The notes under the pieces were generated by a model. The model made no database searches. It had not been told where the DNA came from and was given only the letters and a program-made list of their open reading frames with translations. 64,000 nt of DNA from Giardia intestinalis (taxonomy: Eukaryota). Shown one piece after another: positions 2,650-43,800 of this stretch. The stretch lies in NCBI GenBank assembly GCA_000002435.2, contig CM018791.1. One strand, given 5' to 3'. The translations under genes and the position numbers were made by a program. Position 1 is the stretch's first letter. Each line of letters begins with the position of its first letter.

Positions 2650-2802
2650 GTGGTTCTCCAGCTAGAGCTGTACGAGCTGGTTCTCTAGTGTGATTCAAGG
2701 CGCAGCCCTCCAAGGCCCTCTGTTGCTAAAAGAAATACTAAGTAAAAAGGGACATTTCACTTAAAAGTTGGTCGTTTGCTCCTGTATCGGTTTTGCAGGT
2801 GT

Positions 2803-11236: not shown

Positions 11237-12202
11237 TCAGTACTCAAAAGGCTCATTATAGACGTTAGGGTCATGAGAATATTCTTCCAACCTCCTAAGT
11301 TTTTCCTCCATTTCTTCCAATTTTTTCTTTAGTGTTCTGATTTCGAGCATGCTTGATATGGAAGAAAATTCATCCTGGGGCTTCAAGACCTGCATAAGCA
11401 TGCTTGCTGTAAGGCGTTCCTTAGGGTTTAGTACCAAGATATGCTCCAGGATACTCCTAATGGTCACGTCCTTGATAGCAGAAAGATTCGGGGTCCAGCC
11501 CGCGACGTATACGGTCCTTGGTTGCTTAGCTTCAAGAAGGAAAGGGGTTTTCAGCTTTGAAGAGAGCTCATAGAGCACAATCCCGAGGCTCCACATGTCG
11601 GCAGCCGGAGTTAGCTTGTCCCCAAGCAGAACCTCTGGTGCAATGCAGTACATCAACGCAGTCGTTGCGTTCTGATCTCCAAAGCCCAAGTCAGTCAGGA
11701 CAAACTTTGTTTCTTCCTTGTTGACCAAGATGTTGGCGAGCTTAACATCGCCGTGAACAATCTCTTGTCGTTTATCCTCGTTATGGGCGTCCGCGGAATT
11801 GTGAAGATACTCTAAGGCGCTCCCTATTTGCTTTGCCACGTCTATGACTTGAGCAGTGGAAAAGCTTCTGTTGGTACGCTTATATGCTCTAACGGTACTT
11901 TCTAGAGAGCAAGCATAGCGTGCCATTGTCATATAAATAGCATTATTAGATTTATAGATACCCTCATATCTGATAAGGTTGGGGTGAGACAACTCCGTAA
12001 GAGTGATAATACCCTTTTCAAGAGCCGCAACGGAGTGTTCCGAAAGGTCAAGAGTGCTGATTTCCTTGACGACTTTGTCCTGCTCTCCATCAATAGAGTG
12101 AACAGTCCCGTAAAGGCCTTGACCCAGCTCCTGGCCCAATCTGCTTATTAACGCATTAACTGCCGCAGGATCCGTTACGATTTCCTTGGCCTTGCAATTC
12201 AT
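11237..12202 (-). CDS. NEK family kinase, 321 aa, with a C-terminal coiled coil
   Basis: Motifs present: GQGLYGTV, VVKEIS, HGDVKLANILVN, DLGFGD, APEVL and DMWSLGIVLYEL. The tail is …RTLKKKLEEMEEKLRRLEE. ATG at 12200-12202. Confidence 0.8.
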   Translation of the reverse strand: MNCKAKEIVTDPAAVNALISRLGQELGQGLYGTVHSIDGEQDKVVKEISTLDLSEHSVAALEKGIITLTELSHPNLIRYEGIYKSNNAIYMTMARYACSLESTVRAYKRTNRSFSTAQVIDVAKQIGSALEYLHNSADAHNEDKRQEIVHGDVKLANILVNKEETKFVLTDLGFGDQNATTALMYCIAPEVLLGDKLTPAADMWSLGIVLYELSSKLKTPFLLEAKQPRTVYVAGWTPNLSAIKDVTIRSILEHILVLNPKERLTASMLMQVLKPQDEFSSISSMLEIRTLKKKLEEMEEKLRRLEEYSHDPNVYNEPFEY

Positions 12203-15290: not shown

Positions 15291-15755
15291 TCAAAGCTTG
15301 TACATGGCACTGATACGATCAAACAGAGACGTGGACTCTGTGTTTTCAATATATTCGCTTTCTGATGGGGCGGCTGAATCATCTTCGCAGAGTAGCTTGT
15401 CATTAGTTGTGCTGGAATGTGCATTTTTAGGCGTTGCAGCAGCATAGGGCACTGAGTCTGTGTCCGCCGACAATTGACTCTCTGTAAATGCCCGAGGCTG
15501 AATGGTCTGAGAGCTGCTAAAATCTCGAGGAAGCTTCTTAGTCACAGAGTATGGCTGCCGATTCAAGATTGGATTCTGTGATTTGTTTATTACCGATAAG
15601 TGTCTACTGCCAGCTTGGCTCGTTGTGAGTCTGCCGGGTCCAGGGCTTTTTGTCCGCTGCCTGGTAAGGATGGATGTTGAAATAGAGGGCTGTGAATCTG
15701 TCGATGCGAGGGAAACCGGTTTTTGTGGTAAATTGAGAAGTTCGGGAAGAGGCAT
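15291..15755 (-). CDS. S/P-rich ORF. It is either a small independent gene (ATG at 15753-15755) or a frameshifted C-terminal continuation of the upstream giant kinase-like gene.
   Basis: An open frame of 191 codons (15291-15866) fills an otherwise 790-bp gap between two genes. It overlaps the giant gene's last 44 nt in another frame. The track start is a GTG. Confidence 0.25.
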   Translation of the reverse strand: MPLPELLNLPQKPVSLASTDSQPSISTSILTRQRTKSPGPGRLTTSQAGSRHLSVINKSQNPILNRQPYSVTKKLPRDFSSSQTIQPRAFTESQLSADTDSVPYAAATPKNAHSSTTNDKLLCEDDSAAPSESEYIENTESTSLFDRISAMYKL

Positions 15756-15822
15756 TTTGTATTTACTTGTGGGTGGACTTGTGGGTGGCCTGCTGTATCT
15801 GCCAGGTGCATAAGGCTGCAAC

Positions 15823-18800
15823 TCATAGGGACGGCCGGATTCCGGCGACACTAATGCCACTCTCACTTTCTTCTGTCCTTTCGACCCGGTATGCTTTTAT
15901 CTCGGTGTCCACAGTCTTGGTTAATCCATGGGGCGATTCTTGTGGAAAGGGGAAACCTGCACCACTAATAGATGGCATATTAAGACCACTGTCGCCATCA
16001 TTGCCAACTGTTCCAGTGCCAAGCATGGGGGCATAAACGACAACACCTTCTGGATCATCATCGTTGCTTGTATCGGGAGTTGCCCACAGTGCTTTTATCT
16101 CGGGGACCTGAAGAAGATCCTTTGCTCCAAGTCTTGTCCTTGGCGATGGTAGCAAAAGGAGGTTGATAAACGTAAGTAGCTCTACAGAGTAGACAGTACC
16201 ATCAGCGTCAGTTGACACATTGGAAAGGTCTAGGCCCGTGGGCTGGATAGAGGTCACTCCGGTAAATCCGTGACCAGTCTGCTTCAGCATTGGAAAGTCG
16301 TCAGCCAAAGGCCTGAGTGTGCAAAGCTCGTACAGAACAGATCCTAGAGACCATATATCACACTTCTCATCATACCCGTCGGTGGCTGGGCTCTGGTCTT
16401 GGTCAGTGCTCTGCATAGCAAGAACTTCTGGAGCCATGTACCCGATGGTTCCTGCTGATGCGTATATCCGATCCTTTATTGTGCCATGTCGTGCTCCAGG
16501 CGATGATATAGTCTTTGCCAGGCAGAAGTCGAAGATGTGCACCTTTCCATCTTTTGTTAGAAATAGTGCTTCGGGACGGATGTTTCTATGAACTACCTTA
16601 AGCCCAGTAAGCTCTGCTTTTTCAGTAGAGTGGAGATACTCCAAACCCTTCAGGGTTTCACATGCAATGCCCCATATGGTAGCCTCTGGTACAGGCGCTC
16701 CTTTCTCCAAGTAGCGTGTTATGAGCGATGCAACGTTCCCAAAAACGAAGAACTCAGTAATGATATATGCAGAGTACTGGTCTCCGTCGTAGAAGTAGTC
16801 TAGTAAAGGCGCGATGTTCTCGTGCATTACCTTCCTTAAAATGGTAGTTTCAGAGTCCAGTAGCTGAACGACATATGCGTCGATTGACGTGAACCTTGTC
16901 TCCTTGCAGGTGAGTATATGTCCATTTAACAAGTTCTTTATCTTGTATAGTTTGGAAATATTCATGTCGCAGAGAAAGTCCAAGATTTCATAGTCATCTC
17001 TTAGACGCCTCTTGGGCATCTTAGAGTTGAGGAGCCGCATGTTTTGCAGGGTGTCTGATGCTGCAGTCATAGCTGCCAGCAGGGTAACCTTAGTCTGTTC
17101 TTTGAGCATAACAGATATAAGAGTATTCAAGGCAGGAGTATAGTTTCGTGGTGCAGCCCATATATCATGCTTGAAATTAATATCAATACAGGAGACATCA
17201 TAGCAAGCCATGTCTGCATTGAAAAATGTGGCGTAAACTTGCTTTAGTGTGGCCATTTCGTACAAAACAGCCCCCACCGACCAAGTGTCCTGCAGAAGGG
17301 CATCATATGTCTGTCTGTAGCCATACTTGGTGCGAAGAGCATCCTGGGACATGTACATATCATCTGTAGAGAGTATTGCTGTCTGACTATTGAGCTCCTG
17401 CGACCCAGTTGGGTCTCCCAAATAGACACAGCACGTGAAGTCACATAGTTTCAGCGTTCCAATCCTAATTTCAGAGTCGTCTGTAAAACAAAACCTGAGA
17501 TTGTTAGGGGAGATTGCTAGGTTAGCAAAGGTACCAACTTGACCCTGTGAGTTCTTGAACTCCTGTATGTAAGAGAGCGCTGCAAGAAGTTCTTCAGCAC
17601 ACTTCCATATGCTGTACTCTTCTACTGGCTTATTTGCATCTGAGTATAACAGTAAGACATCAGCCAAGGTGAAGTCGGAAAGCCGCTCACTGATAACACA
17701 TAACTTCTTAACCTCTTTGTCGTAGAAGGCGTCTATGAATCTGTGAATATTGGGATGGTTAAAGCTCAGGAGAAGCTGTGTCTCTAGAATGATAGCGTTT
17801 CGAAGCTCTGGAGGCTTTATATTTAGCAAATCAATGTACTGGCATCTAAACAGTTCCTTTGCAGCTATAGATGCATTCAGGGGCCTTACTAAAATTGTGT
17901 CACCATGCAATGTGCTGGATTCTTCGTCAGTCATTATTATATATTTGCTGCGAAGCACCGATGAGCCAAACTTCTTCTTCACGAGCTTTATGAGTTTATC
18001 TTGCTCTTCTTCTTCTTTCGATTGCTCCACTTGTGGCTCTAGATGCTCCAAAGCAGGGGTGCTGGAGTACCGATCTTGCTCCTTTTCTAGTTCCTTTCCG
18101 GCTAGTAGTGAGTTCTCAGTTACACCTACAAGCAGCGTTTGCGTAGAGGGCTCTGTTGAATTAATGTTAGATCGATGAATGACTGAATCTACCAACTCAC
18201 TAGTATCATCACGCAGCGTGAGTTTTCTGCTATCTGCAAAGCTCAGAGAATGCTGAGCTTGAAGAGGTGCATCTTCTTCTATCTTTCCAGAAGCAGACAG
18301 ATCAACTGCGGCTTCGTCTTCATTCAGTTTTTCCTCTACAAGCGACTCTATCTTAGCGAGCTCAGGATTGATTATGCACCGCATAGAGAATAGATCTGCC
18401 AAAGGGTCCGTTGTACCACAAAATAGCATTCGAATAATCTTTGTTACATTGATATGTTCCTTCGTTGCCTTTAGATGATTAAGGTAAATGGGAAGGGAGA
18501 AGTCTATTAGCTCCTCTAGGGGCGTAGTTTGAAGCGTTTGCAGTATAGTACTGGACAACTCTGGTTGTTGACGCAACGATCCTTTCGTGTTCTTGTTGGA
18601 TAAGTAGCTCGATAAAGCGGTGCAGAAAGCTTTATGGGTATAAAGAGTAAAAAGCAATACACCGAGACACCAGAAGTCCAGATTATAATCTATAGTTGCA
18701 TAGGAGTCGACATAGGCATCTCCAAGAATCGCCTTTGTTTGCGCACTAACCGGGAGTCCGAGAGAGTAGAGAGCATGAAAGATGTTCAGCTTAATGCTCC

Positions 18801-21800
18801 CCTTGCTCAGCAGCATGACATTTGATGAAAGCAAACCACCATGGCAGAACTTGAGATTTAAGGGCTTTGGCATGGTTGCAACGTAAAAAGGAACGGGCAT
18901 ATACACTCTTTCCAATGCCTGCATCAGCTGGTCGCAAATGACAAAGAACTGTGCTTGTGAAAGTCCGGTAGATGAAGCCCGCAAAGTGACCAATAGGTCA
19001 TCCACTGTGCCATCATCTGTGGCTTCGGTAATGAGACACATGCATCCTCTTTTCAGGTCATCATACACGTCCACCAAGTTAGCAAGAAACGGGAATTCTA
19101 GCCCGGTTTGCTTCGAACTGGTAGGCCTGGGATGTTCAACGGCCGAAACGGCCTTCTGTTGGTAGAAGAAGAGCGAGGCTCCCAGCAGCAAAAGTTGATG
19201 AATTATGCGCTGATTTTTCGGGACCAGCTTTACCTCTTGACAAAAATACACTGTATCATCAGAATCGGGGTCGTAGTCATAGGAAGGCTGAATCGAGCGG
19301 TTACGTGTAAGGGTTAGAGCAGTTGGAGTGGCTGATTGAGCAGTCCTCCTTACCTTTAGTAAGCTGCAGCCATTGTCTTTATCCTCAGAAATAACTTTCA
19401 AAGTAGAGTACTGGTTTAGATTTCTGCATGGAATGGGAAATGGAAGCACAAAGTTGGAGAGGCCAACAGTCCCAACGGCGCTGAAGATAGAAGAGAATCT
19501 ATGCAGAAGCTGTTGTGCTGTCTGTCTTCTAGAGCTGTCGACTACAAGCATCATTCGAATCATCTCAATTAGCTCTCGAGAGTAGGGAGCTACTGGGACT
19601 TTGAATTGCTTTCCTAGCCGTAGTGCAGAAGCCGCAGACTCGTTCTCCATTAAGTACTGACTGAAGGATATATTGAAGCACATCTCAAAAAGAGTGGCTC
19701 CAGCGGCCCAAATATCGGAGGTCTTTGTGAAGAAGATATCACTTGTTGATTTCCCAGCCAGCACCTCTGGAGCTAAATAAGGTTCATAGTTAGGCAGAAT
19801 GGTTCGCGTGAAATGGTCTCCATAGAGATGCGCCATACTATAGTCAGATAGAATTGCAGAGTAGTCACTTCGTAGACTTGCGTAGTCCGGGGACTCAGGT
19901 TCCGAAGCCTTTCCGCTCGAAATCAGTAATATGTTCGCAGGACTGATGGCTCCATAGATATAATTGTGATCACATGCGTGCTGGATAACAGATAGAAGCA
20001 TACAAGCAACTTTCCAAATAGTTCTTTCCGGTATGTATGCACGCTGCTCTCTGTTGAGCTGCAGAAGAGTAGATAGGGGAAAGTCGTGGGCGTACTCGGT
20101 TATAACGTAGACATAACTATTGTCTATAAAGCTATCGACAGGCTTCTCAAGTAGATCGCAAGACAGAGTCCGCATAGCTGTAATCACTTCGCAAAGCTCT
20201 TGCACAGACAGCGGAAGCAACTTATTCACCGGGAACTCTTTCACCATGAAGTGCTTTGTTTCGTCCTTCTTGAGGGTGACCTTTAAGGAAACAGTGGTAG
20301 ACGTATCTATAGTGCAAGTGGACAGTTGCTGTGTCTGCTGTGCCATAAGCGGGTCGACAGAGGGATGAGGTAACTCAGATGTGGAGGTGGTTTTTGAAAG
20401 GTTCATAACGGACATATCTTCATGAGAAAGTAGGTCCCCATCAGCAGAAAGCAATGTTTCATCCATGAACTGGTCTAAAACCAAGTATCGCCGGTCAAAT
20501 TTCTTCTGCGTTAAGACTAATGGGAAAGGCCCTATATATGGCAAGATAGCCTTGGTAAGATAAGGATATTCCAGCAGAACGTCAGCAGATGGCCTTTCTG
20601 TCGGTAAAACTGTCAGCATCAGCTCCATGAACTTAATAAGCGAGTCGCTCCACTGAATAAAGCCCTCAATAAGTATGCGTATCTGCTTGCTGGAAATAAC
20701 TGTACTTCGATGCTCGTTGTACTCGTCATAGAAGGAGCGTCCATCGCTGCAGAGCTTATAAAGAATGCACCCCAATGCCCAGATATCATTCTTTTCGTTA
20801 AAGCCATCAATTCCAATACTGGGCTGGCCTATAAGGCCAAGCTTTTCTGGAGCAGAGTAGGGTATTGCTCCTGCAAAGGTCGCTGATAGAGAGCCGGCTT
20901 GTTCGTGTTCCTGTGCATGCCCTGTCAGAAGCACTCTTACGCTACCATCCAATCCAATAAAGATGCTATCAGGTGTCAGATTAGTGAGATAGATAGAGCC
21001 CAGACGGAGCCCATTGCTTGAAAAGCTGTGTGCTTTAGCAACAGCGACAAGAACCTGCGCCATAATGGACCAAATCTCCTGCTCAAGAAACGTGTGGTTA
21101 TGTTGAAAGCGTTGCTCACACAGAGAAGAAAGCGACATAGCCGGGTTACAGTCATAGACAAGAATGAGGCCAAGCTGTGGGTCAAAGAAGGTGTCTATCA
21201 CTGGAACAAAGCAATCATCCGTTAACAAGCGAGAAAATTTGATCTGGGAAAGTACATATGGTGATAAATCCCCAGAGATAAAATTCTCTGGGGATATACG
21301 AAGGGCTCGAGCAACAAACCGCTTATCCTCCGGCTGGCTGCGGTTTATCGTCAAGTCTGTGAATTGAAGACTTTGAAATGCTAGTGAATATTCAGTGGCG
21401 CCGGTTACCTCTGTCGATAACAAGACAAACTCTTGAAAGAGAGGGGTGTCGGCGAGCACCGCCTCAAGTGAATATGAAGACGAAAGGCTTCGCTGCTCAA
21501 TGCTAGTGGGCGAGCCGAAGATGCTCTTTTCCAACCACGATAAGCTGATTTTCTTAAGCAACTGTGATGCACCATAGCGCGCTTCGGGATCCTTCACTAG
21601 AAGCAGTCGAACGGTTGTTTCAAGAGTCTTAGAGTAAGGGGTGTAAGAGAAGACAAACTTGTTATCAAATGTGATATTTTTCAGATGTCCATAGCTTGCC
21701 TTGGCTCGATTAAAGTAGCGGGAGTAGAAAGGCAAGTAAGTCATCATTCGGTACATAACACAGCCAAGACTCCACAGATCGCATTTGTTAGTATACGTAT

Positions 21801-23514
21801 GATGAGAGGGGAAATGATAGAGCTTAGTTTCATTGATGCTCCCCATTTGTACCTCTAGCTTGTTTTGCACCTCTGGAGCCATGCACTCAATGCTGCCAAC
21901 CCGCCCACTGGGGTAGCGGTAGAGTGTGGAGAGTCCAAAATCAAATATCTTGATGGCGTGAGTCACTGGGTTTATCAGTATTGTCTCCAGCGAAAGGTAA
22001 CGAAATACGATTCGCTTAGTGTCATGGAGCCACTCCAAAAGCCCAAGAAGCTGCAGTATAATGGTCCAGATGATGTACTCGGGTAGCTGCTGTTTCTGCT
22101 CACGATTATACTTTATGAACTCGTCCAGGAAGACCATGTTGCTGAGCTGGGGCTTACCAATTTGATGCTGCTCGAAGCACATATCGCTGTTATCATAGAT
22201 AAATAAAATACGTCCCGTTGTGCTGCTATATATGCTGCAAATACAGGGTATTACTGCAGGATGTTCCAGACCTTTCTGATATAAAATATGCTCGTGCGCT
22301 GTGGCAACAATTGTGTTGCCTGTATCATCCTCCACGCGTATCTCCTTTGCCCAAAAGAGTGCGCCACTAGTGTGCTTTTTAACTATCACGTGCGTTCCTG
22401 TCCTATTCCTATACAATCTGCGGATAACCTTGTATTGAAGCACAGCGTCATCGCAAGTACACTCCTTGAGGTAATCAAGAACAATGTTAGTCGTTTCGGA
22501 GAGATATCGCCGAATAGCAGCCACAACAGGGGTTGCAAGAAGCAGACTAGCAGAGGCTCTGTTCTGAGGATTAACCTGGAGCATAAGACGGAGAGTGTGA
22601 TGTAGATCTTGGCTGTATGGGGTTGTGTCCTTTGATGAGCGACAGGCTAAACTGATGCTGGTTATGAATTCTTGCACATATATAGGGTTCCTAGCGTCTT
22701 TGGCGGCCTCTATCCTAGAAGAGGACGGCTTTGGGCAAAGAGGACCAATGGACTCTAACGTAACAGGGACTAGATTAGCAGTAGCAGGATTGGGTAGATT
22801 ATTTGTAACATTGTGCTCTTCCTCCCATTGAAGGGCGTCTGTAATTAGTGGAACTAAGGTGCATAGCTCATAAATGACAGCCCCCAGCGCCCAGATGTCA
22901 ACCCCCTCTTTATACTCTTTGCGCGCAAGCATCTCTGGAGACAGGTAATTCCTGCTTCCACAGAGTTGCTTAAGAAAGTCGTCTTTATACTTTTCCTTTG
23001 CAATACCAAAGTCAGTGAGCATACCGACGTAATTAGAATCCATCAATATATTGTCAGGTTTTATTGATCTGTGCACACAGCTCTTTTCTATGTTATACGT
23101 CTCGAGGTATGCCAACGCCTCCAAAACGCCAACTAGCACCTTCCAAATGATGTCTTCTGGGACGCGCTTCTTATTGGCGCGTGCTCGACGCATGTAAACG
23201 CTCAGTGGGCCATTTGGGCAGTATTGCATCACGTGATAAATCTTGTGTTCATCCTCGGCATAGAAGGTTTCTATGACTTGCGGAATCCGGGGGCAGTGAA
23301 GAGCCGTCAGCATATGTATCTCATTCAGCATTACCATATACATGGGCTTATCGAGCTTGGCGCATTGAAATTCCTTTACCACGACTTGAGAGTACTTTAG
23401 GTCTTTCGCCTTTGGCTGGGCCAAGAGTACCCGTCCACTAGCTCCTGTATGGAGTATTTTAAGGCACTTGTACTTGGCATCAAAAGTTGCGCGAGAAAAG
23501 CTGTCGACGTCCAT
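15823..23514 (-). CDS. Giant protein, 2563 aa, with about seven tandem protein-kinase-like domains of NEK-like fold, all with degenerate catalytic motifs (poly-pseudokinase)
   Basis: Recurring kinase subdomain strings include VHRSIKPDNILMD…DFGIAKE…DIWALGAVIYEL; …IFDFGLST…CMAPEV…DLWSLGCVMY; …YSAPEKL…DIWALGCILYKL; …YLAPEVL…SDIWAAGATLFEM; …DFWCLGVLLFTL; …DTWSVGAVLYEMATL; and VHRNIRPEALF…IFDFCLAKT…YMAPEVL…CDIWSLGSVLYELCTL. ATG at 23512-23514. Confidence 0.85.
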   Translation of the reverse strand: MDVDSFSRATFDAKYKCLKILHTGASGRVLLAQPKAKDLKYSQVVVKEFQCAKLDKPMYMVMLNEIHMLTALHCPRIPQVIETFYAEDEHKIYHVMQYCPNGPLSVYMRRARANKKRVPEDIIWKVLVGVLEALAYLETYNIEKSCVHRSIKPDNILMDSNYVGMLTDFGIAKEKYKDDFLKQLCGSRNYLSPEMLARKEYKEGVDIWALGAVIYELCTLVPLITDALQWEEEHNVTNNLPNPATANLVPVTLESIGPLCPKPSSSRIEAAKDARNPIYVQEFITSISLACRSSKDTTPYSQDLHHTLRLMLQVNPQNRASASLLLATPVVAAIRRYLSETTNIVLDYLKECTCDDAVLQYKVIRRLYRNRTGTHVIVKKHTSGALFWAKEIRVEDDTGNTIVATAHEHILYQKGLEHPAVIPCICSIYSSTTGRILFIYDNSDMCFEQHQIGKPQLSNMVFLDEFIKYNREQKQQLPEYIIWTIILQLLGLLEWLHDTKRIVFRYLSLETILINPVTHAIKIFDFGLSTLYRYPSGRVGSIECMAPEVQNKLEVQMGSINETKLYHFPSHHTYTNKCDLWSLGCVMYRMMTYLPFYSRYFNRAKASYGHLKNITFDNKFVFSYTPYSKTLETTVRLLLVKDPEARYGASQLLKKISLSWLEKSIFGSPTSIEQRSLSSSYSLEAVLADTPLFQEFVLLSTEVTGATEYSLAFQSLQFTDLTINRSQPEDKRFVARALRISPENFISGDLSPYVLSQIKFSRLLTDDCFVPVIDTFFDPQLGLILVYDCNPAMSLSSLCEQRFQHNHTFLEQEIWSIMAQVLVAVAKAHSFSSNGLRLGSIYLTNLTPDSIFIGLDGSVRVLLTGHAQEHEQAGSLSATFAGAIPYSAPEKLGLIGQPSIGIDGFNEKNDIWALGCILYKLCSDGRSFYDEYNEHRSTVISSKQIRILIEGFIQWSDSLIKFMELMLTVLPTERPSADVLLEYPYLTKAILPYIGPFPLVLTQKKFDRRYLVLDQFMDETLLSADGDLLSHEDMSVMNLSKTTSTSELPHPSVDPLMAQQTQQLSTCTIDTSTTVSLKVTLKKDETKHFMVKEFPVNKLLPLSVQELCEVITAMRTLSCDLLEKPVDSFIDNSYVYVITEYAHDFPLSTLLQLNREQRAYIPERTIWKVACMLLSVIQHACDHNYIYGAISPANILLISSGKASEPESPDYASLRSDYSAILSDYSMAHLYGDHFTRTILPNYEPYLAPEVLAGKSTSDIFFTKTSDIWAAGATLFEMCFNISFSQYLMENESAASALRLGKQFKVPVAPYSRELIEMIRMMLVVDSSRRQTAQQLLHRFSSIFSAVGTVGLSNFVLPFPIPCRNLNQYSTLKVISEDKDNGCSLLKVRRTAQSATPTALTLTRNRSIQPSYDYDPDSDDTVYFCQEVKLVPKNQRIIHQLLLLGASLFFYQQKAVSAVEHPRPTSSKQTGLEFPFLANLVDVYDDLKRGCMCLITEATDDGTVDDLLVTLRASSTGLSQAQFFVICDQLMQALERVYMPVPFYVATMPKPLNLKFCHGGLLSSNVMLLSKGSIKLNIFHALYSLGLPVSAQTKAILGDAYVDSYATIDYNLDFWCLGVLLFTLYTHKAFCTALSSYLSNKNTKGSLRQQPELSSTILQTLQTTPLEELIDFSLPIYLNHLKATKEHINVTKIIRMLFCGTTDPLADLFSMRCIINPELAKIESLVEEKLNEDEAAVDLSASGKIEEDAPLQAQHSLSFADSRKLTLRDDTSELVDSVIHRSNINSTEPSTQTLLVGVTENSLLAGKELEKEQDRYSSTPALEHLEPQVEQSKEEEEQDKLIKLVKKKFGSSVLRSKYIIMTDEESSTLHGDTILVRPLNASIAAKELFRCQYIDLLNIKPPELRNAIILETQLLLSFNHPNIHRFIDAFYDKEVKKLCVISERLSDFTLADVLLLYSDANKPVEEYSIWKCAEELLAALSYIQEFKNSQGQVGTFANLAISPNNLRFCFTDDSEIRIGTLKLCDFTCCVYLGDPTGSQELNSQTAILSTDDMYMSQDALRTKYGYRQTYDALLQDTWSVGAVLYEMATLKQVYATFFNADMACYDVSCIDINFKHDIWAAPRNYTPALNTLISVMLKEQTKVTLLAAMTAASDTLQNMRLLNSKMPKRRLRDDYEILDFLCDMNISKLYKIKNLLNGHILTCKETRFTSIDAYVVQLLDSETTILRKVMHENIAPLLDYFYDGDQYSAYIITEFFVFGNVASLITRYLEKGAPVPEATIWGIACETLKGLEYLHSTEKAELTGLKVVHRNIRPEALFLTKDGKVHIFDFCLAKTISSPGARHGTIKDRIYASAGTIGYMAPEVLAMQSTDQDQSPATDGYDEKCDIWSLGSVLYELCTLRPLADDFPMLKQTGHGFTGVTSIQPTGLDLSNVSTDADGTVYSVELLTFINLLLLPSPRTRLGAKDLLQVPEIKALWATPDTSNDDDPEGVVVYAPMLGTGTVGNDGDSGLNMPSISGAGFPFPQESPHGLTKTVDTEIKAYRVERTEESESGISVAGIRPSL

Positions 23515-23593
23515 GTCTCGGCGTTCTCTTGTGCGCAGAGACTAAAATTTTATTGCCAACTCCTTTTAACAGCACAAGAGAGTCAGGATTGCC
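23515..23593. promoter_or_regulatory. 79-bp divergent promoter region shared by the giant pseudokinase gene (-) and the coiled-coil/ankyrin gene (+)
   Basis: The two ATGs face away from each other 79 bp apart. The spacer contains the A/T stretch gactaaaattttattg. Confidence 0.5.
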
Positions 23594-26500
23594 ATGGATC
23601 AAGACAAGCAGGGAGAGTTCGAAAGCTGCGATGAGACAGCAAGCATCCAAGTTGAGACACCGTCGCTGGTGGAGACTCCCGATATTCAGTTTACCATAGT
23701 AGAGAGATCTACACTTGAGCAGGCTTCTTCTGGGGTATCCTTTAGTGTTTCCAGCATCTCGGTTGAAACTCCGTCCCTCAATGTTCAGGAATCTATAACC
23801 AGTGCGTCTGAGGTGCTTTCCACACCAGCCACTATTGACCAAGTGTGTCCTCGTTCTGCACAGTCTCCAGCCGCACCACTTAGCATACTATCATTCAAAA
23901 ATACTAACCTTCGTCCGCTACCACCAAATGACAGTCGTTTTAGCGCTTCCAGCTCCACTGCTCTGCTTCCGGACCCCTCTCTCACAGGTGGTTCTGACAG
24001 CAGGACATCGCGATCATCACTCCTTCCTCGTGAAAGCATTTCAGTTAATACAATTACTGAAGAGAATAGCAAAAGTACGCAAAGCCTGGTCTCGCTTGGA
24101 GAGGTTTTGGAAGGGCCTATCAATTCCCAGCCCTTGGATGATGATCGCTTTCGGACGTATCCATTTGTAGATGTTGAACGGCAGATGCTATCGAATAAGA
24201 TAGAAGCTCTAGAATCTGAGCTTCTTCTAGCTAGGAGCGAAGCAGATGAGCTTATGCTCCAATTAGAGATAGAGAGGCACCAATTTGAACTTATTTCTCA
24301 GTGTCTTTGCCAAACCCTAACTACGGAACGGGCCATTTCTCCTATGTTGATCCCCTCCCCTTCAAATGCCGTGGAACCCCCTGCCGCCTATGCAGATGTT
24401 GACGTTCAAACCATTAGTAACAATGAGACAATGGTTGAGCTTAACAAGCAAGAATATGAGTCCTTTATGGTCATCGCTATGAAGCTCCAAGATGAAAATA
24501 GCACCCTCTGGGAACAGGTTTCGTCCAAAGATAAAACCATAGCTCTCACGACTGAGGCCGTTGATACACTCACAGATGACGTAAAGCATTTGACTGACCA
24601 GCTTTCGATAATTGGCGAGACTAATCTCTCATTGCAGATTGCTTTGCAAGAGAAGGCTTCAATTATAGAGCAATATGAATTAGAGCGAGCAAAGGCTGCA
24701 CTCTCTGATAGCTGTCAACAAACAGACAACCCAGAGTGTGTTTCAAAAGAGGTCTCTGCAACCGAACCGGTAGAGCTCCCCCTTAGGGCAGATGTAGAGC
24801 AACAAACAAGCCTTACATCAACTCAGTCATCTGAGTTATCGGGTGATGCACATTCCGTACACGATGAACCTAAGGATATGACAGGCACTCCTTTGAAGGC
24901 TCTAGCTGAGATCAGCGAACAGATCTCTGTCAAGAAGGAAGAATTAGTAGGAGTTATGGCAAAAATAGACGCTCTTGGGTCGTGGTATAGCAAAGAAGTA
25001 GAGAGGTTGGAGGGCATTAAGTACGTCCAGAGTGAAGCAGATAGCTTGCTTACTGCATCGAAGCAGGAAGGCAAACAGTCAACCTTGTTAGAATTTGCAG
25101 GAAGCGTCCTACCAGCTCCGTCTCACGATGGAAGCCGTGAATCTCGAACAATAACACGCCTCATTGAGGTGCTAAACTTTCAGCCATACAAAGACTCCTG
25201 TACTTCCGGTGATCTATCTGATTGTATTCTTACTTATGCGTCCGAAGTTTTGCCGCACATAGTAGACATACAGCGCATGTTACGGGCCCTGCAGAAGGAG
25301 TACTATGCGTATCTAGAGCAGCTAAGGGCGGATACGAAGACTATTGCAACTCTAAGCGCCGATAATGAGGTCCTTCGTGCTGCCAATGCAAGCCTCCAAG
25401 AATCTGTTGAGGCCCTAAAGGCGCAAGTAGATTCTGATGGGCTAACTAAGAATGATCTTCCCACGGAAAAGGATATTCCACTTCATAGCGCCTCAGTTAA
25501 CACAAGGACCCCAGCTAATGGTCTTCTCGGTCAGTTACTACCATTTCTAAACGATGAGCTCACGAAAAAGAAGGCTCTAAACATCGATGCACTTGAAAAA
25601 ACAATTAGCAAGCAAACAGAGCTCCCACTCTCACGTACTTTAAGGCCAGACCTTTCAAAGATGGCGGACGACTTTTCTGTTTCGGCCGATGTGTCGCTAA
25701 CTGAAGACTCAATGAATCAGCTGCGAGAAATGATCGATGCAAATGATCAGCCTACACACGAGCATGGGGCTTCCAGGTGGAAGGACTACGAGCCACTTTT
25801 GATAGCCATGCAAGCCAGGCACCAAGCCAAACGATCTCTGACGCGTGATATAGATGTTGTATCTGGCCAGCCAGACTACAAGTTGCACTATTTGCGTAGC
25901 AAGTTGGACGCCTTTATGCTCCGACACCAGGTGTTAAAGATCTTTAATGTGCTAGGAACTCTTTTGGAGGAGAACAATTTGCAGCAAGGATCCAAAGACT
26001 CCTTTTGCTCTACTGACCTATCTAAGCTCATCGAGGTCTTAGACCACAAAACCAGGCGTGTGAATGAGCTGGAGACAATTCTTCTAGCTCTCTATCAGCA
26101 GTCGACACACTTTTTCCGAACCTATAGGAGTGTGCTGGACATGGCCACTGTCTCTCTCATTAAGCAAGACTCGTTATTGATGCACAGCGATATGGGTGCA
26201 ATAAGCATGATATTGCTGCATGCAAAGGTTTGCTTGGAAAACTCGAGTAACGAGACAATTAAGGACGCAGTTCTAAGAGCGTTTAATGAGCAACCGTGCT
26301 CACAAATCACACCCAATTCTCATGCGAATGTACTTGCTTCTGCAGACCTTCTAGATGGTAACAAGGAACCAACCAATCCCTTGACAATGACAGTATTGCA
26401 AACTAACCCAGAGCCAAGCTTGCGGTCTCTACTGCAAACAGATATACGACCATCGTTTTTGTTATCCCACTGTGATCCTGCGGCATCTCAAGGTCAGATA

Positions 26501-39016: not shown

Positions 39017-40806
39017 TTAGCCGAGCCGGATAAGTAACTGCTTGATTTCCTGCTTGTTGGCGAAACCCTTGGTGATGTGTGGAAGATTGACGTTCATATC
39101 ATATACAACTAGACGGCCTTCGTGAGGAAGGAGCTGCTTGACAATGGACATGTTCCCTGCTCTACACGCTTCCATCAAAGCAGTGGACCCATAGTTAGTC
39201 ACTACTTTAGCCTCATAGGGTATTAGCCTATCTACAAGGTCTTTGTTTCCCACTTTGGCGGCGAAAAGTAAGGCTGTTTCACCGCGCTGCGTTTGGCGAG
39301 TGGCCTCATGGAGGAGGAGAGTCGCTGAAGTCGTTGACCCAGCAAGGATAGCCAACATCAGAGCGGTATATCCTTCAGCACTTTGAAGCCCAGACTCGTA
39401 TGGCCGGAGCACATCAACTATGTCTGACATTCCGTACAGAGCAGCGAGCATCATAGCCGACACATTGTACAGCTTCTTCGACTTGATTGGAAAGTTGCGA
39501 ACAGACGAGAAGACAGCTTCTCGCAGTCGTATAGTGGCCTCCCTTGGGGCCAGTAGCTCAACGTATGCACGCGCTTGTTTATCAACAGCCATGTGCAGCG
39601 CCGTTTCGCCATCTTTATTAATAAACTTGCATAGGTGCAAATTGGCCCTGATAGTCTCAACGGATGCACCAGATAGCACCATCAGCATTAGATTCGTGTT
39701 ATTGTTCTTATCAAAATAGCACTCCTTCTTAACCTGTCGTGTAATAGCCCTGGGCTGTTCTTCGGTGAATCCCGAGAGGAGAACAGGAGTGGATGAGGCG
39801 TTTTTCGCAGGAGCGGGAGCAGGGGCAGCCGGAGAGCGGGCAGGGCCAGGGTCCTTCGCAGCATTCCCCGGTTTAGAGGGTGCATTGACCTCATCGGTCT
39901 CAAACATCTTGTGCTTATTCTCTACAGGAGCATTTACGGCAGGCTTGGTCGGAGGAGCAATCGCACTTTCGGCGATAATGGCCTTTATCGGCGGGTAGCT
40001 AAGTAACTCATACACAGAAAGTCTATCGTCTTGCCGTATTATGAGGCACCACTCAATGAATTTCTTCAGCTCAGTACTGTACATGTCAGGCAAGGTAAAA
40101 GAGATGAACTCCATTGATGGCTGCCCAGAAGAAAAAAGGGTGTCAAAAGTAGGCACCTTGAGTGTGCAGAGCTCATAAACCACGCATCCAATTGACCAGA
40201 CATCCACCTTCTCCGTGTACTTTTGGCCCTTGATTATTTCGGGCGCCATGTAATGGTAGGTGCCCGCTAGTGTCACTGCCTTAGAAACAACTCCCAGTGG
40301 CCTCGAAATCCCAAAGTCGCATATCTTTATCATGGAGTCGCCGGTGAGCAGAATGTTGTCAGGCTTCAAATCACGATGAATGATGCACTTGAGTCTTGTG
40401 TCATTCGGCTTGTACCTGGAGTGGAGGTAAGAGACACCCTGGAGGATCTGTGCTGCGTAGAGCCAGATAGTCTTCTCTGGAAGGTGTTTCTGTGAGCGCC
40501 GACACTCCAGTATGAGGTCCTTCAGAGACCTCTCACAAAGCTCCATGGCTACGTACTGTTCACCAGCCGCTGCGTTTTGGAAGGTCTCGTAACACTTGAC
40601 CAAGTTGCGATGCTCTAATAGTGAGAAAAGCTCTGTCTCATTGCGCAAAACCTCTTGCGCATTTGACGACAGTGCGCTCAGGTCGATTATTTTAAGAGCC
40701 ATTATAACCCCGTCAGACTGCCTCCTTACCTTGTACACCTTCCCGAATGCCCCATTACCCAGCACGGCCAGCTGCTCATAGCCAGCGGGGACGCCCGGGG
40801 CGACCA
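39017..40806 (-). CDS. NEK family kinase (canonical catalytic motifs) fused to C-terminal ankyrin repeats
   Basis: Motifs present: GNGAFGKVYKV, ALKIID, IIHRDLKPDNILL, ICDFGISR, YMAPEII and DVWSIGCVVYEL. Ankyrin repeats GETALHMAVDK…, GYTALMLAILAG…, GETALLFAAKVGN…, GSTALMEACRAGN…. The first ATG (MVAPGV) is at 40804-40806. The track start at 40927 would overlap the neighbouring gene. Confidence 0.85.
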
Positions 40807-40838
40807 TTTTTATGATGATGTTTACTTTTAAATTGTGC

Positions 40839-43800
40839 TCAGGTCTTAATCTTTTTGACTTTTTTAGATTTCTTCTTAGAGTTGGTCTTTTCTTCCAGGC
40901 TATCTTCTGATACTGGTACAACATCACTTGTTAGCACACCCAACTTGAACAATCTTCCTGTCTCTGCAAGGCTTCCTTCAATAAATAGCTCGTTGGAAAA
41001 AATATAATTGCCATCTGGGTCTGGAACGCGATAGAGCAATTGGTGTTTTTCTACACTATCTGTCGATAGCTTTTCCTGCTGGGTGATAGAAGGAGCCAAT
41101 TCAAGCCCCACCCGAGTAGCAGCCTGGCTATCGAAATGCAAACGGGCATTGCTTCCCAGACTTCGCGCAAAAATTGGCATACACAACGGTACTGGATTAT
41201 AGCCTATAGGAGGCTCTGTCAAGCTTTCTCGGAGAGAGTTAAAGAATAACAAATCATTGCATCCCGAACCACTATCAGTTGCACAGGAGACCCAGTGCCT
41301 TGGCACCATGGCCTTATTTGCCAAGACTGATGATGGAACCGGTGCAAACTCTCTGTCCTCCCCATCACAGCGAATAGTCATATGCATCACATCGTCAACC
41401 TCTAAGATAGCACTTATGTGATCAATGGAAGTGGAAAATAGCGCTTGCAGGTGAACGACAGGCGATTCGGCGACTGTGTACGCATCTAAAGCCCGAAGTG
41501 AGAGAAGCGCGTACGACCCCAGACGCTTAAGAAGATCTTTATCAATGCTCGATGTAAACAAAGCACCACTAGGATCATAGACGGTCCTCAGCAAAACGGG
41601 TGGGATAGCAGCAGATAACATCGCATCGGTGCTCAGCTTGCCGACCCCACTGCTATATAGTACCTTGGTGTCCTTAAGAGAAGAGTACAGCTTTGTGTTC
41701 TTCGCAATTATCCTATTCCCTGTGTTATATAACAACTCATATTCTTTATTACTGAGGCACCCCTGTCCCAGGGCAACATTATGGTCAACAACTACGTCTG
41801 TCACGCTGACATAGTTATATTTGAAGGAATTGCGTTTTCTCTTAGAGGAGTGGTCATCAGAAACTGCCGACTTCCAACTTCGGTGGTCCTGTCGCCCTCT
41901 TCCAGGCATAGTTTCTCTATAGATGTCCATGACAAAATTGCTATAAGATTCTGCGGAGTCTCCTGCTCCTTTTGTTGTGCAATACGTAGAGTATTCTGGA
42001 TCGTTCACCCCCTCATAGTACCACTGCCTCATGAATCCAAACGTATCGTATTCCTTCTCCATAGGTCCAAGTCCCCGACTAGATTCGATCAGGAAAGCGA
42101 GAAAGAGTCTAAAGCCGACAAGGGGGCTTGCTATAAATGTCTTGCCGTCTCTCGTATGCTGTGTAAAAATGAATGCAACAATCAGCTCTATGGCCTCTTC
42201 AGACATAAATCCCATATAAGCACGAGCGCTAGGAGGTACCAGCGTGTGACTCTGAGATACTTCTTCCCGCGCCAAGGTGAACGCGGATTTAACTAACCGT
42301 GGAGGGGCGTCATCGTCTTCTGAATCAGAAATCTCTTGGTCATCTGCTTGTATCATTTCAAGAAACTCTTCTTTAGTAATCTTTTCTTCACAGAGCCTCT
42401 TGTATAAATTTGTAACAATGCGACTTGTGACCGGATTTTCTGCAGAGTCAATGAAAAGGTGCGTCAAGGAATATGTAGGGACTAGGTGTGCATTAACCCA
42501 CCGTTTGGCAAGAAGAACCGAGAGACAATACGCAGCACTCTGTTGCGAAAGGGCTCGAGTCGCCGCCGCATGCGCAGGAAGAATGTTGTAGATAGTGTTG
42601 TAGTATTGTTCCTTAATCTTGTATGTCCGCAGAGAGCTGCTAGAATAATAACTTTGATCTTGTGGAAGTGCAATGAAAAACCGAAAGGCAACCCCTCTGT
42701 GCCCGCCCGCGGAGCTACCGGCAAGAAAATCTGGCAGCTCTTTCCCGTAGATCTGCTTGTCGATATGTCGGATGGGCATAAATATATCGAGGCAGCTCCC
42801 TCGCAAATACATTTTTGAATCAGACGGAATGTAGCTAGTATATGCCACGTTATCCACTAAATAGGACTCGATGCTTGTCTTGTATCCCACATCTGCCGCC
42901 TTAAGAACGGCAGAGGAATGAAGAGAAGGCCGCTTAGTTTGGATGTGGGTCATTAGCATGTTCATGACAAGAAGCTTAAGGCACGCAATCGCTCCGGGGT
43001 CCTTTGGCCATGCGTCGCGATTCTGGAGAATCATCGTTCCCGTTATACAGCGATTATTGAACGGAATCTGATCATGAGACGGATCTTTATCCAAATATAA
43101 GATATAGGCAGGAGAATCCACGGATGAAAGCCTTCCATATTCATCGCTCATTGCTATACTTACTATGTTGACTGGAAGGTCTGTACAGTCAAGCGATGCA
43201 GCCTGCAGTGCGGCCTGTATGTGTTCACATGCTATGGAGAGAACTTGCATTTCAGACAACAAAAGCGTAGTAGACATGTTAGGATAAGCTACATCCACGA
43301 GTCCGGAGGAGTCACGGATGTACATTTTTCTTATCAGGTGGCTAAAGTTGTGCCTAACAAAGCCTTTTAGAATATTGTGCAGCTGCTTTTCTACCGAGAC
43401 GCCCCGCTCCCACTTCGTACAGACGCACATATCTCCATCTGCAAATCGACGCTTGTCTAGCATCTTTTCTTTATCTATTGAAAAGTCGAATAAACGCGAA
43501 TACAAGTCCGCGTCATTCTTTTGCGACAGTATAGATGGCCCACGATGGATCGCAGTCCCCGTCTGAGCAAGCGTGGAGGGAGCCAGTTTCATGAGAACGA
43601 GAATATGCGGCTGGGAGACGTCATACAATGGCCCAGATAGTTCTGCGTTGGAGGTACTATTAAAGCAGCTTCTGAGCATGTCAGGTGTGATGGTATGCAG
43701 GTTATTTTTGTAGCAGCATGTGGCGTGGACGCCCCAGTGTATCACGCAGGAAACATCTGTGACTTTGTTTGCATAATGTCCTAATGCTTTGAAGATGATG

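What the first reader, a model, noticed from the sequence alone, without database searches (positions are those of the whole stretch)
15823..23514. 2563-aa protein made of about seven tandem NEK-like pseudokinase domains
Kinase subdomain signatures (Gly-loop region, HxD catalytic-loop position, DFG-like, APE, and the DxWSxG helix F motif) recur about every 300-350 residues, seven times. None retains a canonical HRD…DFG set. The variants are HRS, HRN, 'LTGHA', 'GAISPAN', 'CHGG' and DFC/DFT. Giardia is known for an expanded, largely inactive NEK family. A single polypeptide stringing seven dead kinase folds together is architecturally unusual and suggests a scaffold rather than an enzyme.
Basis: partly seen in the sequence, partly recalled or inferred. 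Interest (0 to 1): 0.7.

Follow-up and report, generated by a model that had tools for sequence, protein, structure and literature searches.

The report
Giardia seven-domain NEK pseudokinase protein
This is the known Giardia intestinalis gene GL50803_87945, one 2563-residue protein made of seven very divergent NEK-like kinase folds that all lack the catalytic aspartate; the seven domains were already noted in the 2011 Giardia kinome paper, and the protein's function is still untested.

Summary
Window 15823..23514 (-) is one uninterrupted 2563-codon ORF. It is 100% identical to G. intestinalis WB XP_001710057.1 / A8B2V2 'Kinase, NEK' (GL50803_87945). Pfam Pkinase matches seven stretches. Six pass the curated cut-off on their own. 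The fifth is marginal (18.8 bits) but is supported by profile-profile comparison and by a predicted structure that matches NEK2/NEK7.

All seven domains lack the catalytic Asp (HRS, FRY, LTN, YGA, HGG, NLA, HRN), in assemblages A and B and in G. muris. The loss is therefore old. Each domain's best solved relative is human NEK2 or NEK7.

The siblings share only 10-26% identity and there is no repeat at the DNA level. dN/dS is 0.03-0.10 in every domain and linker. Neighbouring genes keep their order as far as G. muris.

Domain 1 lacks only the catalytic Asp, so it probably still binds nucleotide. A non-catalytic scaffold is the best reading, but it is inference.

This is not new. Manning et al. 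[quoted passage not shown] Predicted proteins with up to 10 kinase domains now exist. No paper's main text in the searched library names the gene. Interest is low to moderate.

The parts
15823..23514 (-). Whole coding sequence of GL50803_87945 (2563 aa plus stop), 'Kinase, NEK'
   Evidence: The ORF is listed and translated. It is 100% identical over 2563 aa to P0082 = XP_001710057.1 / A8B2V2. Manning 2011 Table S1 lists it as GK269.
22525..23466 (-). Domain 1 (aa 17-330). It is the most canonical domain: HRS in place of HRD, with K72, E91, K168, N171 and DFG all kept.
   Evidence: Pfam Pkinase 140 bits. Best PDB match is human NEK2, 97 bits. The catalytic loop is 92% identical to G. muris, against 42% for the whole domain.
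21553..22404 (-). Domain 2 (aa 371-654): FRY in place of HRD, N171 changed to T, DFG intact.
   Evidence: Pfam 82 bits. The top 10 PDB hits are all NEK7 sequences, one of them a NEK7 fusion construct. AlphaFold2 model of D2-D3.
20557..21471 (-). Domain 3 (aa about 682-986): LTN in place of HRD, LTG in place of DFG, K72 changed to R, E91 changed to Q.
   Evidence: Pfam 62 bits covering only profile positions 61-263. The AlphaFold2 model places strands beta1-beta2 of the N-lobe at aa 682-700, followed by a disordered insert at 703-729. Best PDB match is NEK2.
19501..20274 (-). Domain 4 (aa 1081-1338): YGA in place of HRD, DYS in place of DFG (the Asp is kept), K72 and N171 kept.
   Evidence: Pfam 70 bits. 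Best PDB matches are NEK2 and NEK7.
18370..19410 (-). Domain 5 (aa about 1369-1715). It is the most degenerate domain: HGG in place of HRD, IFH in place of DFG, K72 changed to Q, no APE motif. It has disordered inserts.
   Evidence: Pfam gives only 18.8 bits, below the cut-off. hhalign against D7 gives 97.8%, E 1e-12. The AlphaFold2 model has pLDDT 76 and pTM 0.77. Foldseek top hits are NEK2 and NEK7. All of the best 60 matches of the ortholog profile against PDB sequences are protein kinases, but they are weak, best E 0.017.
17935..18354 (-). Long acidic linker between D5 and D6 (aa 1721-1860).
   Evidence: No Pfam match. Identity to G. muris is 22%, with insertions and deletions. It is still under purifying selection between assemblages A and B, dN/dS 0.064.
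17065..17934 (-). Domain 6 (aa 1861-2150): NLA in place of HRD, DFT in place of DFG, K72 changed to Q.
   Evidence: Pfam 53.5 bits. Best PDB match is NEK7.
16102..17007 (-). Domain 7 (aa 2170-2471): HRN in place of HRD, DFC in place of DFG (DFG in G. muris), N171 changed to A, K72 and E91 kept.
   Evidence: Pfam 118 bits. Best PDB match is NEK2 at 81 bits, 20 bits above the next kinase family.
15826..16101 (-). C-terminal tail (aa 2472-2563) with no detectable domain.
   Evidence: No Pfam match. It is largely absent from the G. muris ortholog, which ends just after D7.
15761..15767 (-). AGTAAAT, which matches the Giardia polyadenylation consensus AGTRAAY. It starts 56 nt after the stop codon.
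   Evidence: Read directly from the sequence. The consensus is recalled from my own knowledge of Giardia and was not tested here.
23543..23554 (-). AT-rich stretch AATAAAATTTTA, 29-40 nt upstream of the ATG, inside the 79-bp intergenic region shared with the divergently transcribed ankyrin-repeat gene. It is a candidate initiator or promoter element.
   Evidence: Read directly from the sequence. The promoter role is inferred from the known short AT-rich Giardia promoters (own knowledge).

Best explanation
Shown: this is the single-copy Giardia intestinalis gene GL50803_87945. It encodes one polypeptide of roughly 285 kDa (estimated from length) that consists almost entirely of seven NEK-related protein-kinase folds. 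The folds are packed head to tail with short, structured connectors. The exception is one long acidic linker between domains 5 and 6. Every domain lacks the catalytic base Asp (PKA D166). The losses predate the split of G. intestinalis and G. muris. The whole chain is under strong purifying selection.

Inferred: the protein does not phosphorylate substrates. It acts as a multivalent, non-catalytic scaffold. Each pseudokinase fold would offer a distinct docking surface (pseudo-active site, activation segment, C-lobe) for partners. Those partners are most plausibly some of Giardia's active Neks or their cytoskeletal targets, by analogy with kinase-pseudokinase pairs such as STRAD-LKB1 or HER3-EGFR. 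Domain 1 keeps the ATP-binding Lys, the alphaC Glu, the Mg-binding Asn and DFG. It (and less certainly D2, D4 and D7) probably still binds nucleotide as a structural cofactor or switch, not as a substrate.

The identity and architecture are near certain. The scaffold mechanism is the most likely reading, but no data tested it. The confidence given (0.6) is for the scaffold mechanism.
For: Identity: 100% match to XP_001710057.1 / A8B2V2. [quoted passage not shown]

Seven kinase folds: Pfam, hhalign, AlphaFold2 plus Foldseek for D5 and for D2-D3.

No catalytic Asp in any domain in WB, GS or G. muris.

NEK affinity: the top PDB hit is NEK2 or NEK7 for D1-D4, D6 and D7, and for the D5 model.

Functional constraint:
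- dN/dS between assemblages A and B is 0.025-0.095 in every domain and linker.
- The architecture and the flanking genes are conserved in G. muris at about 40% identity.
- The pseudo-catalytic loops are far more conserved than the domains around them: D1 92% against 42%, D2 83% against 46%, D4 73% against 45%.

Compact chain: the D2-D3 'linker' is 54% identical to G. muris. It is predicted to be ordered and supplies the alphaI extension plus beta1-beta2 of D3. The two-domain model has pTM 0.70.

Expression: a SAGE value is recorded for the gene in Manning's Table S1 (maximum 5.2 on the table's 'SAGE Max % x 1000' scale).

No other domain type was found.
Against: - No localisation, interaction, knock-down or biochemical data were found for this gene. 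The gene and UniProt identifiers occur in no main text in the library.
- Lack of activity is inferred from motifs only. Some kinases without the canonical Asp keep weak activity (own knowledge: HER3, JAK2 JH2).
- D1's Ser at the D166 position is invariant across Giardia. This could equally mean an unconventional catalytic or ligand-binding role.
- The structure models rest on shallow alignments that include the sibling domains. That biases them toward a kinase fold.
- No inter-domain error estimates were available, so the rigid packing of D2-D3 is only suggested.
Confidence: 0.6

Rival explanations
1. At least one domain (D1, possibly D7) is a working but unconventional enzyme. It would be either a low-activity kinase that uses another base in place of D166, or an ATP-dependent switch or ATPase. 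The other domains would then be regulatory, as JH2 is to JH1 in JAKs.
For: D1 keeps G52, G55, K72, E91, K168, N171 and DFG and lacks only D166, which is Ser. Its catalytic loop CVHRSIKPDNI is 92% identical between G. intestinalis and G. muris. D7 keeps K72, E91 and the DFG Asp. D1 scores 97 bits against active human NEK2.
Against: The catalytic base is missing in all seven domains and in all three lineages examined. D7 also lacks N171. No domain has the complete K/D/D set that Manning 2011 and the 2025 re-annotation use to call a kinase active. No biochemical data exist.
Confidence: 0.15
2. The 7.7-kb ORF is an artefact. It would be either several adjacent Nek genes read as one, or an assembly chimera, so no seven-domain protein exists.
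For: The recorded SAGE value is low. Predicted poly-kinase proteins in other genomes may sometimes be fused gene models.
Against: - There are no stop codons over 2563 codons.
- The same uninterrupted ORF of 2411-2590 aa occurs in assemblage A, in assemblage B and in two G. muris-type genomes, despite about 60% amino-acid divergence and saturated synonymous sites, dS about 1.7.
- The exact protein was seen on 108 contigs.
- Linkers are under the same purifying selection as the domains.
- The D2-D3 junction is predicted to be structured.
- Giardia genes almost never have introns (own knowledge).
Confidence: 0.02
3. The protein is a decaying relic of an ancient tandem Nek array. It has no specific function and is tolerated because it is weakly expressed.
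For: D5 and D6 are very degenerate and the least conserved: 29-34% identity to G. muris, and their catalytic loops are no better conserved than the rest of the domain. The recorded SAGE value is low.
Against: dN/dS is 0.06 overall and at most 0.095 even in D5. The ORF has stayed intact since before the split of G. intestinalis and G. muris. The fold-defining residues D220, W222 and G225 are kept in every domain, with one exception: W222 is Y in G. muris D5.
Confidence: 0.03

Closest known systems
Giardia Nek expansion ('Dead Neks' of Manning et al. 2011; 'ncPsK' non-core pseudokinases of the 2025 re-annotation, PMC12538575)
   Same: It is a listed member: GK269, Nek-Unclassified, 'Dead Nek - missing D166', with 1:1:1 orthologs in strains WB, GS and P15. 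Like most of the 198 Giardia Neks, it lacks catalytic residues and has no close paralog.
   Different: 67% of Giardia Neks have one N-terminal kinase domain followed by ankyrin repeats. This protein has seven kinase domains and no ankyrin, coiled-coil or RING domain. Only two dual-domain Neks came up in the searches of that table.
Human NEK2 / NEK7 kinase domains
   Same: They are the best solved-structure relatives of every domain. By sequence this holds for D1-D4, D6 and D7. For D5 it holds by predicted fold.
   Different: Human NEKs are active single-domain kinases with HRD and DFG. Scores are modest (29-97 bits). D1 is only 6 bits closer to NEK2 than to SGK1.
Tandem kinase/pseudokinase proteins: JAK JH2-JH1, GCN2, and plant tandem kinase proteins such as WTK1/Yr15 (named from own knowledge)
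   Same: Several kinase folds sit in one chain, with degenerate copies retained under selection.
   Different: Those proteins have two domains and at least one is catalytically competent. Here there are seven domains and none has the full K/D/D set. No two-domain structural template matched the D2-D3 model.
Predicted poly-kinase proteins in other eukaryotes: P0110, 10 domains, unnamed ENA assembly; Erigeron canadensis XP_043628168, 6; Thraustotheca clavata OQR99834, 6 and OQR81754, 5 stretches; Tritrichomonas foetus OHS93305, 6 stretches; Achlya hypogyna P0005, 4
   Same: They have many tandem kinase domains in one predicted protein. P0110 is also mostly degenerate, and its siblings share 25-38% identity.
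   Different: They are unrelated lineages and kinase groups (tyrosine-kinase-like domains in P0110). Most keep several HRD/DFG-positive domains, and P0110 keeps one complete domain. They are gene predictions without the cross-species ORF conservation shown here. None is an ortholog: the next best score after G. muris is 420 bits, against 1865.
Single-domain pseudokinase scaffolds: STRADalpha, HER3, KSR, Tribbles (own knowledge)
   Same: The catalytic residues are lost while the fold is kept and, in some cases, nucleotide binding too. They act by docking or allostery. This is the working model for this protein.
   Different: Those are single pseudokinase domains with known partners. Here seven are chained together and no partner is known.

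Membership tests
Eukaryotic protein kinase fold (Pfam PF00069 Pkinase) | Each domain matches the Pkinase profile above the curated cut-off (31.7 bits) | tested here: met
   Six of the seven domains score 53.5-140 bits when scanned alone. D5 scores 18.8 bits and fails alone, though it is counted among the 7 stretches in the whole-protein scan.
Eukaryotic protein kinase fold (Pfam PF00069 Pkinase) | Bilobal fold: N-lobe with beta1-beta5 and alphaC, helical C-lobe with alphaE and alphaF | tested here: met
   AlphaFold2 models of D5 (pLDDT 76, pTM 0.77) and of D2-D3 (pLDDT 71.5, pTM 0.70) show this order of elements. Foldseek gives probability 1.00 to many solved kinases. Caveat: the alignments used for modelling contained the sibling kinase domains. 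D1, D4, D6 and D7 were not modelled.
Pseudokinase | At least one of the catalytic residues K72, D166, D184 (VAIK / HRD / DFG) is missing | tested here: met
   D166 is replaced in all seven domains in WB: S, Y, N, A, G, A, N. It is also replaced in all seven in GS and G. muris. In addition, K72 is replaced in D3 (R in WB and GS, K in G. muris), D5 and D6, and D184 in D3 and D5.
Pseudokinase | No phosphotransfer activity | not testable with these tools
   This needs recombinant protein and kinase assays.
NEK family of protein kinases | The kinase domain is closer to NEKs than to other kinase families | tested here: met
   The top solved-structure hit is NEK2 or NEK7 for D1 (97 bits against 91 for SGK1), D2 (top 10 all NEK7 sequences), D3, D4, D6 and D7 (81 bits against 61 for SLK). 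For D5 this holds only for the predicted fold. Margins are small for D1 and D3. Manning 2011 classed it as Nek-Unclassified.
NEK family of protein kinases | Confident assignment by dedicated kinase-family HMMs or phylogeny | tested here: inconclusive
   No NEK-specific HMM library was available. The 2025 re-annotation regrouped 177 former Giardia 'Neks' as non-core kinases because their HMM assignments (Nek, PknB, Ciliate-A5) were ambiguous. That paper's supplementary tables were not available, so this gene's own entry could not be checked.
Typical Giardia Nek architecture | One N-terminal kinase domain followed by TALM-type ankyrin repeats (67% of Giardia Neks) | tested here: not met
   There are no Ank, coiled-coil or RING hits. 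Manning's table lists none either.
Tandem kinase-pseudokinase regulators (JAK-like, plant tandem kinase proteins) | At least one catalytically complete kinase domain next to the pseudokinase(s) | tested here: not met
   No domain has K72, D166 and D184 together.

The most novel reading that the evidence does not exclude
The chain of seven pseudokinase folds is a dedicated 'poly-pseudokinase' platform. Each degenerate domain would dock a different active Nek or cytoskeletal client. Nucleotide binding to domain 1 would switch the assembly. The protein would organise Nek signalling on Giardia's microtubule cytoskeleton. That mode of kinase-network organisation has not been described elsewhere.
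Probability: 0.2. Interest if true: 0.6.

Novelty: already known. Interest (0 to 1): 0.3.

Why it matters
Giardia devotes about 3.7% of its proteome to Neks, and most of them are catalytically dead. What these pseudokinases do is an open question. This gene is the extreme case: seven dead folds in one chain, kept intact and under strong constraint since before the split of G. intestinalis and G. muris.

If it is a multivalent scaffold, it would be a convenient entry point for finding which active kinases or cytoskeletal proteins the pseudokinase expansion serves. As a discovery it adds little. The architecture is annotated and was noted in 2011. What is added here:
- the marginal fifth domain is confirmed;
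- the catalytic Asp was already lost in all seven domains before the split from G. muris;
- the pseudo-active sites of D1-D4 are among the best conserved parts of the protein;
- seven domains is no longer the record.

Tried and rejected
- Self-BLASTP of the protein at E 1e-3 found no internal repeats. Tandem Repeats Finder found no DNA-level repeat of domain size. I rejected a recent internal duplication. Sibling domains score at most 60 bits to each other. That is less than D1 and D7 score to human NEK2 or to an unlinked kinase ORF in the same window.
- The D5 ortholog profile against PDB sequences gave only weak hits, best E 0.017, though the best 60 listed were all kinases. Profile-profile comparison and structure prediction were needed.
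- Literature searches for 87945, GL50803_87945, A8B2V2 and 0087945 found no main-text mention. The supplements of the 2025 kinome paper are not held.
- A first two-domain alignment (A3) was unusable as a paralog alignment, because overlapping segments aligned by identity. It was rebuilt as A4.
- A Foldseek search with the D2-D3 model found no two-domain template, only single kinase domains.
- A single-domain (D7) search of the 5.8-billion-protein set at E <= 1e-15 returned nothing, not even the parent protein. It therefore gave no information on the closest Giardia paralogs, and the threshold was too strict.
- I considered and rejected a gene-model or assembly artefact and a decaying pseudogene (see the rival explanations).
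Full report
**1. What is at the coordinates**

Window 15823..23514 on the minus strand is one ORF of 2563 codons with an ATG start and no internal stop. An in-frame TAG lies nine codons upstream of the ATG.

The protein is 100% identical over its full length to Giardia intestinalis WB XP_001710057.1 / KAE8303050.1 / UniProt A8B2V2, named 'Kinase, NEK'. That exact sequence was seen on 108 contigs.

**2. Number of kinase domains**

Pfam Pkinase (PF00069) matches seven stretches in the whole protein (511 bits). Scanned as seven separate segments, the matches are:

| Domain | Residues | Bits |
|---|---|---|
| D1 | 17-330 | 140 |
| D2 | 371-654 | 82 |
| D3 | 770-986 | 62 (C-terminal three quarters of the profile only) |
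| D4 | 1081-1338 | 70 |
| D5 | 1473-1636 | 18.8 (E 0.001, below the 31.7-bit cut-off) |
| D6 | 1904-2142 | 53.5 |
| D7 | 2186-2471 | 118 |

Six domains are therefore secure by Pfam alone, and D5 needed more evidence.
- A profile of the D5 orthologs gave only weak hits against PDB sequences. The best E was 0.017, although the best 60 matches were all protein kinases, mostly aligned on the catalytic loop and helix F.
- Profile-profile comparison was clear. D5 against D7 gave probability 97.8%, E 1e-12 over 185 columns. D5 against D1 and against D6 each gave 95.5%.
- An AlphaFold2 model of residues 1360-1745 has pLDDT 76 and pTM 0.77. It shows the kinase order of elements (beta1-beta2, disordered insert, beta3, alphaC, beta4-beta5, alphaD, alphaE, alphaF onward).
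- Foldseek places human NEK2 and NEK7 at the top for that model (E 5e-10, probability 1.00).
- Caveat: the alignment used for the model contained the sibling domains, which favours a kinase fold.

The helix-F motif D.W..G occurs exactly seven times, against 0.05 expected from shuffles. The spacings are 373, 331, 357, 346, 463 and 310 residues.

**3. Catalytic residues**

I aligned the seven domains from WB, assemblage B (GS) and G. muris to PKA as a ruler. Its landmark residues checked out, and the NEK2 alignment agrees for D1. Residues in WB, with G. muris differences noted:

| Domain | HRD position | DFG position | K72 | E91 | N171 |
|---|---|---|---|---|---|
| D1 | HRS | DFG | kept | kept | kept (K168 also kept) |
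| D2 | FRY | DFG | kept (R in G. muris) | kept | T |
| D3 | LTN | LTG | R (K in G. muris) | Q | S |
| D4 | YGA | DYS (DFS in G. muris) | kept (R in G. muris) | V in WB/GS with a Glu one position earlier, E in G. muris (ambiguous) | kept |
| D5 | HGG | IFH | Q | L | kept |
| D6 | NLA | DFT (GFT in G. muris) | Q | kept (A in G. muris) | kept (C in G. muris) |
| D7 | HRN (HRK in G. muris) | DFC (DFG in G. muris) | kept | kept | A |

The catalytic Asp is absent from all seven domains in all three lineages, so the losses predate the split of G. intestinalis and G. muris. Two points refine it: DFG is intact in D1 and D2, and D1 lacks nothing except D166.

The fold-core residues D220, W222 and G225 are kept in every domain. 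The one exception is W222, which is Y in G. muris D5.

**4. NEK affinity**

Against all PDB sequences, the best hit of each domain is a human NEK:

| Domain | Best PDB hit |
|---|---|
| D1 | NEK2, 97 bits (SGK1 91, PKA up to 88) |
| D2 | top ten all NEK7 sequences |
| D3 | NEK2 |
| D4 | NEK2 and NEK7 |
| D6 | NEK7 |
| D7 | NEK2, 81 bits, against 61 for the next family |
| D5 | NEK2 and NEK7, by predicted fold only |

'NEK-like' is therefore supported, though with small margins for D1 and D3. Manning et al. class the gene as Nek-Unclassified. A 2025 re-annotation regroups 177 former Giardia Neks as 'non-core' kinases because their family assignments are ambiguous.

**5. Relationship among the domains**

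Pairwise identity among the seven WB domains is 10-26%. Their phmmer scores to each other are at most 60 bits. That is lower than D1 and D7 score to human NEK2, and lower than they score to an unlinked kinase ORF in the same window at 39017..40927 (88 and 96 bits).

There is no DNA-level repeat and no BLASTP self-hit at E 1e-3. The array is therefore either a very old internal duplication or a fusion of distinct Neks. These data cannot tell which.

**6. Conservation and selection**

Full-length orthologs exist in:
- assemblage A2 (98.8% identity);
- assemblage B (2581-2590 aa, 81.5%);
- G. muris (2411 aa, 40.5% over aligned positions);
- a second G. muris-like genome (2412 aa).

Pfam finds 6-7 stretches in the orthologs, and D5 is again the marginal one. 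The profile search counts 7 stretches in G. muris.

dN/dS between assemblages A and B is 0.06 overall. It lies between 0.025 (D2) and 0.095 (D5) in every domain and linker, with dS about 1.4-2.7.

Between G. intestinalis and G. muris, the 12-residue pseudo-catalytic loop is much more conserved than its domain. The figures are D1 92% against 42%, D2 83% against 46%, D4 73% against 45% and D3 67% against 49%. D5 and D6 show no such excess.

Gene order is conserved. A divergently transcribed ankyrin-repeat gene lies upstream. A small ORF of about 155-165 aa and an actin-related gene lie downstream, in assemblage B and in G. muris.

**7. Chain geometry**

The 'linker' between D2 and D3 (aa 655-720) is 54% identical to G. 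muris, more than the flanking domains.

In an AlphaFold2 model of aa 355-1000 (pLDDT 71.5, pTM 0.70), aa 654-700 are ordered (pLDDT 70-82). They form an extension of helix alphaI of D2 and then strands beta1-beta2 of D3. Low-confidence stretches are inserts within the domains.

So D2 and D3 abut with almost no free linker. By contrast, aa 1721-1860 between D5 and D6 are acidic and poorly conserved (22% to G. muris). The 92-residue C-terminal tail is largely missing in G. muris. No inter-domain error map was available, so rigid packing is only suggested.

**8. One gene or several**

Direct transcript data were not available. The indirect evidence for one gene is strong:
- an uninterrupted ORF kept over about 60% amino-acid divergence;
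- purifying selection in the linkers;
- a structured D2-D3 junction;
- a short AT-rich stretch 29-40 nt upstream of the ATG;
- an AGTAAAT matching the Giardia poly(A) consensus, starting 56 nt after the stop, just before the next ORF (the consensus is from my own knowledge);
- a SAGE value in Manning's table (maximum 5.2 on the table's 'SAGE Max % x 1000' scale, R-value 1.95).

**9. What is already known**

Manning et al. [quoted passage not shown] The main text of that paper does not discuss it. No paper in the library mentions the gene or UniProt identifier in its main text. The finding is therefore already known as an annotation, and functionally unexplored.

**10. Is seven still a record?**

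I searched 1.84 billion representative proteins with a profile of the family. Giardia muris came first (1865 bits, 7 stretches). A large gap followed, and then came unrelated poly-kinase proteins.

P0110 is an unnamed 2911-aa protein from ENA assemblies, in a cluster of four. It has ten tandem tyrosine-kinase-like domains by Pfam. Only the last has both HRD and DFG, and the siblings share 25-38% identity.

Others have 4-6 domains: Erigeron canadensis, Thraustotheca clavata, Tritrichomonas and Achlya.

So poly-kinase chains are rare but not unique, and seven is no longer the maximum among predicted proteins. No ortholog outside Giardia was detected.

**11. Mechanism**

Shown: seven NEK-related kinase folds with no catalytic base, strong constraint on the whole chain and especially on the pseudo-active sites of D1-D4, and no other domain type.

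Inferred: a non-catalytic, multivalent scaffold in which each fold docks a different partner. Nucleotide binding probably survives in D1.

The main rival is an unconventional enzyme or ATP switch in D1. It cannot be excluded without biochemistry, and I give it 0.15. An artefact (0.02) and a decaying relic (0.03) are effectively excluded.

**12. Verdict**

Novelty is 'already known'. Interest is about 0.3: it is a striking architecture, but it is annotated and published, and nothing here changes its standing beyond the details above.

Noticed in passing
P0110 (protein from ENA assemblies; not in the window): An unnamed 2911-aa predicted protein consists of ten tandem tyrosine-kinase-like domains. 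Only the last has both HRD and DFG, and four others keep HRD without DFG. Sibling domains share 25-38% identity. It exceeds the 'record' of seven. The organism is unknown.
   Followed up: partly
window 39017-40927 (-), 2776-5706 (+), 1252-2649 (-), 11237-12202 (-): There are four further kinase-like ORFs in the same 64 kb (179, 130, 82 and 69 bits to the family profile). The 636-aa ORF at 39017-40927 is closer to D1 and D7 than their own sibling domains are.
   Followed up: partly
window 15291-15755 (-): A small ORF of 154 aa starts about 70 nt after the stop of the seven-domain gene. An ORF of similar size sits at the same place in assemblage B (165 aa) and G. muris (155 aa), and neither has a Pfam hit on record. 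The 191-aa GTG ORF listed at 15291-15866 is the same frame extended upstream.
   Followed up: no
window 11237-12202 (-) compared with L001 21497-22831: The single-domain kinase downstream is 321 aa in this window. Its positional counterpart in assemblage B is 444 aa with ankyrin repeats. This suggests gain or loss of Ank repeats between assemblages.
   Followed up: no
window 23594-27559 (+): A 1321-aa ankyrin-repeat protein is transcribed divergently from a shared 79-bp intergenic region. This head-to-head pairing is conserved in assemblage B and G. muris.
   Followed up: partly
window 52000-60000: GC content rises to 0.56-0.64, against about 0.46 in most of the rest of the window. The cause was not examined.
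   Followed up: no
L002 20842-23640 (G. muris): Downstream of the actin-related gene, G. muris has a Piwi-domain gene where G. intestinalis has a kinase gene. Synteny therefore ends there.
   Followed up: no
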